Positions 26,430 through 30,142 of a stretch of 64,000 nt of DNA are shown here, in pieces. The stretch is taken from NCBI GenBank assembly GCA_963750165.1, contig CAVVPN010000003.1:1216001-1280000 (forward strand), given 5' to 3'. Source of the DNA: an uncultured Gemmataceae bacterium. Lineage in GTDB: Bacteria; Planctomycetota; Planctomycetia; Gemmatales; Gemmataceae. The notes below the pieces were generated by a model. That model saw nothing but the letters and a program-made list of their open reading frames with translations, did not search any database and was not told the origin of the DNA. Each line of letters opens with the position of its first letter. The first letter of the stretch is position 1. The position numbers and the translations under genes were made by a program.

Positions 26430-26776
26430 GGTCCGATGAAGGGGAACAGAGTCCTCATGGCGCTCTGCGGCACCCGAAGCCCATGAAAATGGGGGCGAGT
26501 CGGGCTCGACTACCGGGGGCTCTCCGGTGCGACTTGAGGCCGCTTTCTGCATGGTGCCATGAGCCCGCTCCAGAGTCTGGCCCACGACCTCGTCTCGAAC
26601 CCGAACTGGTCGCCCCCGCACCCGCGGGGAGCACGCAGGGCAGCTGGTTCTACCCTTTGAGGTCTGTCGCGCCGCGGCCCCTGATGTCTTGTCCGCCCTC
26701 GGTCGCTCCGCGTACCCACGTGCCCGTTGGGGAGGGGGAGTTTGTGTCCCTCCCTAGAATTCATTTTCAGGGCAGC
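26430..26776 (-). mobile_element. Non-coding hairpin-rich element, candidate orphan IS110/IS1111-type non-coding end (long copy)
   Basis: No credible ORF; at least five short hairpins; 26596-26776 is duplicated at 27498-27678. Family assignment is inference. Confidence 0.5.
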
Positions 26777-26784
26777 AGCAGAAA

Positions 26785-27312
26785 TCAGACTGCCCGCCAC
26801 TGCTCCGCGGTCAGCCGATAGAAGACGTGCGGCAAGTTCGCATAGGTGCCGTCGCGCTCGTAGCGGAAGCCGGCCTTCTCCATGACGCGCTGCGAAGCGC
26901 GGTTGGTCAGCAGCGTGAAACACACCAGGTCGGGCAGGTGCAACTCCTCGAACGCGGCGCGAATGCTCTCCTTCGCCAGCTCGGTCGCCAGACCGTGGCC
27001 CCAGAACTCCGGCAGCAGCGCGTAACCGACCTCCACCTCGGATTTGCCGTCGAGCGTGAGCCGCCGCAGACCGCCGCGGCCGACGAACGCTCCGGTGTCG
27101 CGGTCGCGCATGATCCACAGACCGAAGCCGTCCTGCTCCCAGTTCCGCAGCAGCAACGCGAACCGCTCCAGCATGACGGCTTCGGGTTTCATGCCGCCGA
27201 GCGTCGCCATGACCTGCGAGTCGCTGTACATGCGCAGGATGTCGTCGCGGTCGGCCGCGGTCGGCCGAACCAGCAGCAGGCGTTCCGTCTGGCGGTCGGC
27301 AAGCGGCGGCAT
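26785..27312 (-). CDS. GNAT N-acetyltransferase (RimJ/RimL family)
   Basis: TERLLL, FVGRGGL, EVGYALLPEFWGHGLATE and NRASQRVMEKAGF; GGAG RBS. Confidence 0.92.
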   Translation of the reverse strand: MPPLADRQTERLLLVRPTAADRDDILRMYSDSQVMATLGGMKPEAVMLERFALLLRNWEQDGFGLWIMRDRDTGAFVGRGGLRRLTLDGKSEVEVGYALLPEFWGHGLATELAKESIRAAFEELHLPDLVCFTLLTNRASQRVMEKAGFRYERDGTYANLPHVFYRLTAEQWRAV

Positions 27313-27374
27313 GGCGAATCTCCTTCGGACCGTGACCGCCGCTCCCCGACAAGGGAATCCCCGCAGCGGACGCA

Positions 27375-27497
27375 GCACGCCCAAAACGATCTTGCAAACA
27401 GCCCCGCTCGGGGCTTTCAGCAAAAGGGTGCGGGGGCACCTTGTAGACCCCGCGCACCTCTTCGGCGTCGATCTCCACCCGCTTCACCAGCACCCGG
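27375..27497 (-). pseudogene. C-terminal fragment resembling a large serine recombinase
   Basis: RRVLVKRVEIDAEEVRGVYKVPPHPFAESPERGCLQD resembles the C-terminal RxLVKRIEI...VRIVY tail of serine recombinases; no start codon, and it abuts the repeat. Confidence 0.55.
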
Positions 27498-27678
27498 CGA
27501 ACCCGAACTGGTCGCCCCCGCACCCGCGGGGAGCACGCAGGGCAGCTGGTTCTACCCTTTGAGGTCTGTCGCGCCGGGGCCCCTGATGTCTTGTCCGCCC
27601 TCGGTCGCTCCGCGTACCCACGTGCCCGTTGGGGAGGGGGAGTTTGTGTCCCTCCCTAGAATTCATTTTCAGGGCAGC
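27498..27678 (-). repeat. Second (truncated) copy of the 181-bp element
   Basis: 180/181 identical to 26596-26776 (offset 902; single mismatch 26675 C vs 27577 G). Confidence 0.95.
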
Positions 27679-27878
27679 GTCCAGCTTTCAAGTGCTGGTA
27701 ATTAAGGAGTTACGGCAAAGCCGGACGATCTGTGAAGGCGGAACCACGAACGAAGATGCGTTCCAATTCATTCGGATGGATGTTCGATCTCGACGATGAA
27801 CGCTTCAAGCGGTGCTTGCGAAAGTCAAACACCCTGGTCGGGCGCAAGGTTGCGCCCAACCGGGGTGCCAGATCGCTG

Positions 27879-29351: not shown

Positions 29352-30031
29352 TCACGGTTGCTGGCGTCGCTGTTGCAGCTGGGCCACGAAGGCGGCGTGT
29401 TCGGGCGAGTTCAAGCTCTGCGTGAGTGTGGCAGCAATTTGCGGAACGTTGTCCTGCCAAAATGCCGTTTCGTGAAGCCACAACCCCGGAAATTCCTGCG
29501 AACGCCAAACACCATCCGTTGGCGAGGCCGCCACCTGGTACGCCCCGTCCACCAACCGGTGCCAGCGCAACTCTTGCTCGAAAACCAGGACCGCCAAATA
29601 CTCCTGGACACCCTCTTCCTGGTAAAGTTCCAGCTTCTGGTGCAGGTCGTAGGCAGCGCTCGACAAGCACACCTCGGCCAGGAACTCCGGCACGCCCAAC
29701 GGGAAACGCCCTTGCATGACCGAGCGCCCGCCGTACTCCGGCAAAACGCGCAGTGACACGTCGGGTTGCGGGGCGTCCTCCCCCATCAACCAGGTGGCGT
29801 TCGCGGAGGCGGTGCAGCCTGGAGTGTAGCCAGAATAATGTTTGAGCCAGTAGCTGACCCGACAATCAACGTCCCCGTGTTCCAGGCTCGTCGGCGAAGG
29901 CATGTAAACGATCCCCCCAATCAATTCCGCGCGCTGAGATTCGGCATCGCGTCCCAGCGGCGCAGAAATTCCTCGCGGGTTAAGTTGTCGCCCTGCGACA
30001 GCGGCAACACCTGTTGTTCGACCGTGGACAT
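29352..30031 (-). CDS. Uma2 (DUF820) family endonuclease; 1-nt frameshift at ~29936
   Basis: MSTVEQQVLPLSQGDNLTREEFLRRWDAMPNL, then after the shift RAELIGGIVYMPSP, PQPDVSL, PEFLAEV, KLELYQEEGVQEY and SQEFPGLWL; AGGAG RBS before ATG 30031. Confidence 0.85.
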
Positions 30032-30142
30032 TGCGGTTGTCTCCTTGAAGGGTTTCGGTCATTCTACCCGACCGGGGACCGCTTTGAAAAACCCACCCGT
30101 CACTTATAATGGCGGCAATCGCCCTGGCTTCGAGACCGAATC

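What the first reader, a model, noticed from the sequence alone, without database searches (positions are those of the whole stretch)
26430..27751. Transposase-less structured element, duplicated as a 181-bp direct repeat around a GNAT gene: candidate orphan bridge/seek-RNA module with cargo
Seen: 26596-26776 and 27498-27678 are 180/181 identical direct repeats. They enclose a complete RimJ-type GNAT and a recombinase tail. The left copy continues for ~165 nt of further non-coding sequence. The element is dense in hairpins (CCCAT/ATGGG, AGTCG/CGACT, ACCGG/CCGGT, CCCCGC/GCGGGG, GGGAGGG/CCCTCCC). It has long-range complementarity (CTCATGGC 26454-61 vs GCCATGAG 26556-63) and internal copies of its own terminal sequences (CAGAGTC at 26447 and 26571; CAGGGCAGC at ~26636 and at the 26768-76 boundary). 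On the - strand both outer ends of the region contain CCTTCA, one of them within a half REP-G at 27733-51. Established: IS110/IS1111 elements encode structured guide RNAs in their non-coding ends and often target REPs. Inference: the - strand text ACCAGCTGCCCTG...GACCAGTTCGG...GGGCCAGACTCT...CCCCTTCAT looks to me like an IS110-family downstream non-coding region. This could be a non-autonomous RNA-guided unit mobilised in trans, or a repeat-flanked excisable 902-bp cassette.
Basis: partly seen in the sequence, partly recalled or inferred. Interest (0 to 1): 0.75.

Follow-up and report, generated by a model that had tools for sequence, protein, structure and literature searches.

The report
Guide-RNA-only mini insertion sequence
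This is a small jumping element that has lost its enzyme gene but kept the guide RNA and both ends of an IS110 insertion sequence; the gene between two copies looks like a bystander, but the guide points to an undescribed way of recognising the element's own end, possibly as folded single-stranded DNA.

Summary
The 181-bp repeat is real. It is the 3' part of a 324-bp element (26452-26775, AG core at both ends): the left end, bridge RNA and right end of an IS110, without transposase. The RNA lies on the + strand, upstream-type, not on the - strand downstream as first read. The genome holds three 98-99% identical copies with three different right flanks, and a homologous 333-bp module occurs in another genus, so it has probably moved in trans, like ssr9/MITEPpu9 of ISPpu9. 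Copy 2 is a 5'-deleted second insertion. The GNAT looks like a resident gene, and I found no evidence that it moved. This scan noted gene-less IS110 minis before in two other genomes. The surprise is clade-wide. In 49 dereplicated relatives three guides match flanks and right end, but the fourth does not match the adjacent donor (z 0.7). It matches a segment about 20-30 bp inside the left end, beyond a conserved palindrome (z 12.9; 15:1 in sister pairs). The CT-core strand of the circle junction can fold so that both donor guides bind one strand, suggesting an attC-like single-stranded donor (inferred, about 40%; eight literature searches found no such report).

The parts
26450..26451 (+). Left core dinucleotide AG (recombination point)
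   Evidence: Same position in homologous IS110 left ends with varied flanks
26452..26775 (+). Copy 1: complete 324-bp transposase-less IS110 module (left end + bridge RNA + 3' tail + right end)
   Evidence: nhmmer profile built from 37 homologous left ends, without window sequence, hits it at E 2.9e-23; no transposase ORF
26458..26472 (.). Left-end DNA palindrome (TG...CA), one G.G mismatch in this copy
   Evidence: Stem of 5 bp or more in 35 of 44 elements vs 22% of shuffles, fixed spacing
26472..26480 (+). Segment X (ACCCGAAGC): displaced donor site matched by the 5' strand of the donor loop
   Evidence: Covaries with Y: z 12.9, 15:1 sister pairs, single peak in sliding scan
26483..26490 (+). 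Left subterminal inverted repeat ATGAAAAT, 31 nt inside the end; also a candidate -35 box
   Evidence: Complements ATTTTCA of the right end, covariation z 3.9; a TANNNT box lies 16-19 nt downstream in 18 of 43 relatives
26506..26511 (+). Degenerate -10 position (TCGACT, lacks the conserved A)
   Evidence: no promoter found by consensus scan
26538..26582 (+). [quoted passage not shown]
   Evidence: RNAalifold consensus of 38 sequences, 18 of 27 pairs with compensatory change
26544..26552 (+). Guide antisense to the right target flank (predicts CAGA)
   Evidence: Family covariation z 6.5; observed right flanks CAGC, CGTC, CAGC
26568..26577 (+). Guide identical to left target + core (CTCCAGAG) plus 2-nt handshake (TC)
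   Evidence: Family covariation z 18.9 and 9.1; 5 of 8 match to this copy's flank, 2 of 2 handshake
26586..26663 (+). [quoted passage not shown]
26599..26607 (+). Segment Y (ACCCGAACT): 5' strand of donor loop, 7 of 9 identical to X
26636..26643 (+). Guide identical to the right-end donor + core (CAGGGCAG, 8 of 8)
   Evidence: Family covariation z 14.8
26664..26762 (+). 3' tail with hairpin at 26727-26757, shared with transposase-less modules of another genus
   Evidence: Alignment score 49 vs 0 of 2000 (L215) and 1 of 2000 (L236) shuffles; 12 of 2000 for the long right end of full IS L022
26763..26775 (+). Right end: ATTTTCA inverted repeat, donor half-site and core AG
   Evidence: Same motif ends full IS110 copies
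26785..27312 (-). GNAT acetyltransferase gene (175 aa), probably resident
   Evidence: PF13302 E 1e-31; one copy in genome, 21 of 251 other family genomes; GC3 0.90 like its neighbours
27383..27497 (-). C-terminal remnant of a large serine recombinase element
27498..27677 (+). Copy 2: 5'-deleted copy (donor loop, tail, intact right end; core AG 27676-77)
27678..27760 (+). Right part of an interrupted genomic repeat (target of copy 2); its left arm is missing
   Evidence: 11 intact members elsewhere carry the left arm, 7 with AG and 4 with AT before the insertion point

Best explanation
A non-autonomous IS110 derivative. SHOWN: 26452-26775 consists of the left end and two-loop bridge RNA of an AG-core, upstream-RNA clade of IS110, joined through a ~100-bp tail to the right end, with no transposase. 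INFERRED: an IS110 transposase encoded elsewhere, loaded with this RNA or a similar one, joins the two AG cores into a ~324-nt circle and inserts it at CAGAG^C-type sites. This happened at least two and probably three times after the transposase was lost, because all three copies share the same transposase-less join and end exactly at the core. Copy 2 inserted into a genomic repeat near copy 1. A later deletion removed its 5' 144 bp, the left arm of the target repeat and most of a serine-recombinase element, leaving a 181-bp direct repeat around a resident GNAT gene. INFERRED, about 40%: in this clade the donor is the folded CT-core single strand of the circle junction. The inverted repeats and the left-end palindrome zip it into a rod whose bubble presents the right-end half-site to one guide and segment X to the other, so only one strand would be exchanged.
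For: Homologue directly 5' of an IS110 gene (PF01548 E 5e-28, PF02371) in the same genome; a profile of such left ends hits 166 of 168 transposase upstream regions. Guide covariation over 49 dereplicated elements: LTG z 18.9, handshake 9.1, RTG 6.5, LDG 14.8; sister-pair tests 19:0, 10:0, 14:2, 11:0 of 21 pairs. Two-loop fold with 18 of 27 compensatory pairs. Three copies, three right flanks; own guides fit own ends (8/8, 7/9, 2/2) and two of three right flanks (3/4). Homologous 333-bp module in G038. Precedent: ssr9 forms circles and occurs apart from ISPpu9 (PMC12288879). Folded donor: Y matches X (z 12.9; 15:1), not the adjacent donor (z 0.7; 9:7); only 2 of 106 scanned windows peak (z 11), next highest 3.6; no complementary RNA partner of X or Y (z 0.2, 0.4); window junction folds as predicted at -10.7 kcal/mol; outer stem probability above 0.5 in 34 of 43 vs 46% of shuffles.
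Against: No parent element: the best left-end relatives are only ~70-75% identical, and the closest transposase in the genome (C3:527336) begins with CTG where relatives have ATG. The -10 box of copy 1 is degenerate. The target guide matches copy 1's left flank at only 5 of 8, and matches a ~293-copy REP at 8 of 8, yet no REP copy is occupied. Left junctions of copies 2 and 3 are not at AG and no mechanism was found. No empty site (no congeneric genome held). For the folded donor: the wobble-polarity test gave 9 vs 20 against over all positions and 8 vs 7 over positions 2-8, so pairing direction is not shown. In 8 distant plasmid IS110s the X/Y match was clear in 2, plausible in 1 and poor in 5, judged by eye. 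Mutating the A-box palindrome of ISPpu9 did not stop circle formation (PMC12288879, section 17). About half of naked MFE folds show alternative pairings.
Confidence: 0.85

Rival explanations
1. Composite cargo element: the intact left end of copy 1 and the right end of copy 2 bound a 1,226-bp unit (26452-27677) that carried the GNAT in, or can now move it.
For: Both outer ends are intact. ISPpu9 forms circles from alternative end pairs (PMC12288879). Cargo-bearing and partial IS110 circles are common (10.64898/2026.08.14.744561, sections 5 and 9). GNAT homologues in 13 other genomes are not next to these WD40 genes.
Against: The unit occurs once. The left flank is not the left arm expected for the repeat on the right flank. 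Copy 1's own right flank CAGC fits its guide and equals copy 3's, as expected of a separate insertion. GNAT codon GC is host-like.
Confidence: 0.15
2. Inert debris: a full IS110 decayed in place and the pieces were spread by host recombination, with no transposition of the short form.
For: Two of three copies are truncated; the promoter is degenerate; four other decayed IS110s lie in the genome.
Against: All three copies share the transposase-less join, are 98-99% identical and stop at the core with different flanks; a same-sized module with a homologous tail exists in another genus.
Confidence: 0.1
3. X and Y look alike for another reason: the transposase binds the same word in DNA and RNA, an antisense RNA pairs with both, or the guide binds X on double-stranded DNA with only the palindrome extruded.
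For: Pairing polarity is not shown. ISPpu9 and ISPpu10 make antisense RNAs over this region (PMC12288879, PMC8450116). Distant relatives often lack a clear match.
Against: 25 different 7-mer Y types among 43 elements track X, as guides do. Y sits in the loop strand opposite a proven guide. Guide order on the RNA is reversed relative to the two sites on one DNA strand, which needs a U-turn in that strand. No third RNA partner was found.
Confidence: 0.45
4. Assembly artefact producing the 181-bp duplication.
For: No reads could be examined (one search listed none).
Against: The copies differ by one base and copy 2's base is shared with the copy on contig C4; each right junction is unique and falls exactly at the core; contigs are megabase-sized.
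Confidence: 0.03

Closest known systems
ssr9 / MITEPpu9 of ISPpu9 (Pseudomonas putida KT2440; PMC12288879, PMC8450116)
   Same: Transposase-less module with IS110 ends, AG core, ~43-bp left box with a palindrome and ~14-16-bp right box, found apart from the transposase gene, native promoter inside the left end. The printed A and B boxes (Table S2) show a similar lopsided inverted repeat, judged by eye.
   Different: Sequence homology to ssr9 not tested. In the parts read, Ssr9 is discussed as a regulator or hitchhiker and no guides are assigned; here all guide positions are mapped. No copy here sits directly behind a transposase gene.
IS621 bridge RNA system (PMC11208160, PMC11208158)
   Same: Two-loop RNA in the left end, target guides on opposite strands, handshake dinucleotide, CT core (on the - strand here).
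   Different: Sites are inverted relative to the gene (AG on the coding strand; right-flank guide precedes left-flank guide). The fourth guide does not match the adjacent donor but a site 21-29 nt inside the left end. Promoter appears internal rather than formed at the junction. No transposase in the element.
ISEc21 (IS110 group, upstream seekRNA; PMC11187229)
   Same: Upstream non-coding region; mini-elements move when transposase and RNA are supplied in trans; guide order reported as reversed relative to IS1111 members.
   Different: Different transposase subgroup; donor-loop pairing not described in the passages read.
Integron attC sites (recalled, no call)
   Same: Proposed logic only: a folded single strand serves as recombination substrate and one strand is exchanged.
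   Different: Tyrosine recombinase reading extrahelical bases, no RNA guide; no homology implied.

Membership tests
IS110 family, autonomous element | Encodes a DEDD + Transposase_20 recombinase | tested here: not met
   No such ORF in 26430-27751; nearest is C3:527336
IS110 family ends and bridge RNA | Non-coding end homologous to ends of IS110 genes | tested here: met
   E 2.9e-23 with a window-free profile that hits 166 of 168 transposase upstream regions
IS110 family ends and bridge RNA | Shared core dinucleotide at both boundaries | tested here: met
   AG at 26450-51 and 26774-75
IS110 family ends and bridge RNA | Two internal loops on covarying stems | tested here: met
   18 of 27 consensus pairs compensatory in 38 sequences
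IS110 family ends and bridge RNA | Target guides match left and right flanks | tested here: met
   z 18.9 and 6.5; 19:0 and 14:2; in the window 5/8 and 3/4, 1/4, 3/4
IS110 family ends and bridge RNA | Donor guide matches the right-end half-site | tested here: met
   z 14.8; 8/8 in the window
IS110 family ends and bridge RNA | Second donor guide complementary to the first bases of the left end (IS621 type) | tested here: not met
   z 0.7; 9:7; no peak near the core
IS110 family ends and bridge RNA | RNA is expressed and bound by the recombinase; circles form | not testable with these tools
   No run listed
IS1111 group | Long non-coding region downstream of the transposase gene | tested here: not met
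   Homologues are upstream
IS1111 group | Subterminal inverted repeats a few bases from both ends | tested here: not met
   A 7-nt repeat exists but lies 31 nt inside the left end and 4 nt from the right core
MITEPpu9/ssr9-type non-autonomous module | Both IS ends, no transposase, copies at unlinked sites | tested here: met
   Three copies in G000, one with both ends; one complete and one truncated in G038
MITEPpu9/ssr9-type non-autonomous module | Sequence homology to ssr9 | not tested
   ssr9 sequence was not fetched; only the A/B boxes were seen
MITEPpu9/ssr9-type non-autonomous module | Small RNA made; transposase-dependent circle | not testable with these tools
   No reads; -10 degenerate in copy 1, intact in L215
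Cargo-bearing (composite) IS110 | Same bounded unit at another site, or an empty site | tested here: not met
   One GNAT copy in G000; 0 of 13 other GNAT loci with IS110 sequence; empty site not available
Folded single-strand donor (attC-like mode) | Junction strand folds with both guide sites in one bubble at fixed spacing | tested here: met
Folded single-strand donor (attC-like mode) | Mismatch polarity shows RNA pairing with the CT-core strand at X | tested here: inconclusive
   9 vs 20 all positions, 8 vs 7 positions 2-8
Folded single-strand donor (attC-like mode) | Single-strand exchange with a single-stranded substrate | not testable with these tools
   Needs biochemistry

The most novel reading that the evidence does not exclude
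A widespread IS110 clade uses its bridge RNA to recognise a folded single-stranded donor. Both donor guides pair with the CT-core strand of the circle junction, which the subterminal repeats and a left-end palindrome fold into a pseudo-duplex, so the excised single-stranded circle could insert directly by one strand exchange. The 324-bp module is a self-contained, separately mobile guide-RNA cassette of that clade, able to retarget transposases in trans.
Probability: 0.4. Interest if true: 0.85.

Novelty: new variant of a known kind. Interest (0 to 1): 0.62.

Why it matters
The element itself extends a known idea (ssr9/MITEPpu9) to another phylum and shows such modules can carry a complete, self-matching bridge RNA. 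The displaced fourth guide matters more. Bridge recombinases are being engineered on the IS621 model of two double-stranded substrates, while recent preprints argue that excision yields single-stranded circles that must be converted by the host. A clade whose donor loop reads a site beyond a palindrome offers a direct, cheap test of whether some IS110s insert folded single-stranded DNA, and gives the pairing rules needed to reprogram its donor loop. It may also explain why ISPpu9 conserves a 43-bp left box with a palindrome that is dispensable for circle formation.

Tried and rejected
Rfam: nothing. Minus-strand, downstream (IS1111-type) reading: rejected by homologue position and U.G pairs. 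CRISPR type I-E repeat (my first recall for the CCCCGC/GCGGGG hairpin): rejected, it is the donor-loop hairpin and is not arrayed. Canonical antisense fourth guide: not supported. An RNA partner pairing with X or Y: none. Wobble-polarity test: uninformative. Sequencing runs: none was listed, so no test of expression, circles or assembly. A loose pattern for further orphan modules gave matches in 88 of 252 genomes, at about the level of the reversed control; only G000 and G038 matches were recognisable modules. A stricter pattern found 0 in viral contigs. The tail first showed no significant likeness to right ends of 146 full elements (best 34, shuffled maximum 39); it became significant only against the G038 modules. 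Terminator scan did not call the 3' hairpin. The outer-stem count printed was miscomputed and its window junction carried the core twice; one search replaces both. Look-ups of earlier findings by sequence and by place returned nothing. No structure or complex prediction was run.

Full report
OBSERVATION. The repeat is as described: 26596-26776 and 27498-27678, one mismatch at 26675, spacing 902. Between them lie a complete GNAT gene and the last ~37 codons of a large serine recombinase; 17 of 251 other family genomes match that tail and both full ORFs I scanned carry resolvase, recombinase and zinc-ribbon domains. The host genome is 9.6 Mb in 12 contigs; its gene content and the named top hits suggest a planctomycete (inference).

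WHAT IT IS. BLAST of the left copy found a third copy on contig C4 (267 bp, 98.5%) and a 73% relative at C3:527180. That relative lies directly 5' of an IS110 gene on the same strand (PF01548 and PF02371), and that IS ends in the same right-end motif as the window copies. In 267 genomes of the order, 11 others matched; 8 of their 14 loci had an IS110 gene just downstream. I collected relatives (78 loci; 80; 2). A profile built from 37 of their left ends, without window sequence, hit 166 of 168 transposase upstream regions and scored copy 1 at E 2.9e-23. So 26452-26775 is left end + bridge RNA + ~100-bp tail + right end, 324 bp, with AG cores and no transposase. The consensus fold of 38 sequences has the two-loop bridge architecture, 18 of 27 pairs compensatory, with near-invariant U.G pairs fixing the + strand.

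GUIDES. Of 168 loci, 90 could be parsed by fixed motifs, 87 had a right flank, and 49 remained below 80% identity. Own versus permuted pairing (20,000 permutations): left target z 18.9, handshake 9.1, right target 6.5, right-end donor 14.8. I then dropped 6 visibly mis-parsed rows by eye (43 left) and compared 21 disjoint nearest pairs on a transposase tree: 19:0, 10:0, 14:2, 11:0. The first base after the donor guide also tracks the right flank (z 4.0). Read on the - strand this is the IS621 scheme with a CT core and handshake bases (PMC11208158, passages). In the window the donor guide matches its right end 8/8, the handshake 2/2, the right-target guide predicts CAGA against CAGC, CGTC, CAGC, and the left-target guide matches copy 1's flank 5/8. 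That guide matches a ~293-copy REP 8/8; only 14 of 4096 AG-ending 8-mers lie in such repeats, yet none of 9 candidate continuations was an insertion. This is unexplained.

HISTORY OF THE LOCUS. The three copies share the transposase-less join and end at the core with three flanks, so the short form spread after the gene was lost. Copy 2 interrupts a genomic repeat at the position where 7 of 11 intact members have AG; the left arm is missing. The simplest account is two insertions and one deletion that removed the 5' 144 bp of copy 2, the left arm and most of the recombinase element. The GNAT is single-copy, has GC3 0.90 like its neighbours, and 0 of 13 homologous loci show IS110 sequence. The outer ends could still act as a 1,226-bp composite, as alternative end pairs do in ISPpu9, but nothing shows that they did. 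With a covariance model (trained with the window copy) 20 of 150 family genomes matched; of 28 non-G000 loci returned, 22 had transposase sequence downstream and 6 did not. Two of the six, in G038, share the window's tail (0 and 1 of 2000 shuffles reach the score); one is a complete 333-bp module with a TATGAT box 17 nt after ATGAAA. Such modules therefore occur in at least two genera. A TANNNT box sits at that place in 18 of 43 relatives (controls 0-4); copy 1 has TCGACT, so it may be silent unless read through from the WD40 gene 22 bp upstream. The closest transposase in G000 keeps its catalytic motifs but starts with CTG; its donor guide differs from the module's end by one wobble.

THE FOURTH GUIDE. 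The strand opposite the donor guide (Y) should be complementary to the first bases of the left end. It is not (z 0.7; 9:7). It is identical in sense to segment X just before ATGAAA (z 12.9 on all 49; 15:1 in pairs), with 25 distinct 7-mers among 43 elements and a one-base DNA bulge in 26. A sliding scan of 106 strand-windows peaked only there (z 11; next 3.6). Between core and X lies a palindrome of 5 bp or more in 35 of 44 (22% in shuffles), starting 6-8 nt after the core and ending mostly 9-11 nt before ATGAA. The inverted repeats are lopsided: 4 nt from the right core, 31 nt from the left. X lies upstream of the likely promoter, and no RNA partner for X or Y was found, so X probably acts as DNA. 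Both donor guides would then pair with the CT-core strand, in an order that needs the strand to turn back. Folding the window junction gives that rod (-10.7 kcal/mol), and the outer stem has probability above 0.5 in 34 of 43 relatives against 46% with shuffled interiors. The 12 short (77-90 bp) RNA-less minis of this genome keep palindrome, X and both repeats. Against: mismatch polarity is uninformative or slightly adverse; 5 of 8 distant plasmid elements show no clear match (by eye); naked folds vary; and ISPpu9 circles form with a mutated palindrome, although the authors leave a role in integration open. I put the folded single-strand donor at about 40%; that Y reads X in some way is more likely than that.

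COMPARISON. Closest is ssr9/MITEPpu9 (PMC12288879: outline, sections 4, 13, 17, first part of 18, passages, Table S2 passages; PMC8450116: passages). Single-stranded excision circles and half-match recombination are reported for IS621 (10.64898/2026.08.31.748434: abstract, section 6), copy-out and top-strand insertion for CazIS110-1 (10.1101/2025.10.25.684509: abstract, first part of results), partial circles and cargo for many IS110s (10.64898/2026.08.14.744561: abstract, first part of results, section 9), and a target stem-loop for ISPpu10 (10.64898/2026.03.19.712850: abstract, passages). I also saw passages of PMC11208160, PMC11187229 (with supplement passages) and PMC13626964, and passages plus section 8 of 10.64898/2026.10.21.760802. 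Searches found no report of a displaced donor guide or folded donor for IS110. [quoted passage not shown] S12 of the last preprint show diverse bridge RNAs and could bear on this. The integron comparison is recalled, not from a call. Two earlier notes of this scan describe gene-less IS110 minis in other genomes; I did not check them.

VERDICT. Real, explained, and a new instance of a known kind of non-autonomous module; the GNAT cassette idea is weak. The clade-wide displaced guide lifts it to a new variant with a clear test. Interest 0.62.

Noticed in passing
G000: C1:61843, C3:527005, C3:680274, C3:2602295, C3:77648, C3:48177, C4:105263, C11:547852, C12:462278, C12:1145589, C1:387075, C11:706674: Twelve 77-90-bp IS110 minis with left box and right end but no RNA; 10 of 12 sit in the TTAGAG^ site of a REP-like repeat.
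   Followed up: partly
window 26568-26575: The left-target guide equals the centre of the genome's most abundant REP (~293 copies), but no REP copy carries the element.
   Followed up: partly
G000 C3:527005-528594: A full IS110 inserted exactly at the right end of a short mini; its target guide resembles IS110 right ends. L019 shows the same nesting.
   Followed up: partly
G000 C11:300521 and L236: Elements cut at the DNA copy of their own target guide: one continues into the REP's right half, the other has lost everything between its left end and the guide.
   Followed up: no
L083, L084, L205, L203: A second left-end/RNA module directly behind the transposase gene; in L083 its target guide matches the right end in front of it, in L203 it is a tandem copy. 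This recalls the ISPpu9-ssr9 layout.
   Followed up: no
G000 C4:900694, C11:300521, C11:1579149, C11:1956506: Four decayed copies of another IS110 whose target guide fits the TTAGAG site; a candidate former driver of the short minis.
   Followed up: no
G000 C3:2408256, C4:1181378, C4:1187865: Three copies of a more distant IS110 (53% protein identity); donor guide, palindrome and X/Y likeness are visible here too, by eye.
   Followed up: partly
L218 (G017), L233 (G091), L226, L219: Other bridge-RNA copies without a downstream transposase; L218 has a right-end-like motif ~220 nt later.
   Followed up: partly
window 27383-27497; L178-L186: The serine recombinase family is multi-copy in some relatives (5 matches in G037, 4 in G053) and its frames diverge right after the matched tail, as for an IS-like element ending in its own gene.
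   Followed up: no
window 29352-30062 (-): Uma2-family putative restriction endonuclease gene (PF05685 E 1e-22), 1.5 kb from the finding.
   Followed up: no
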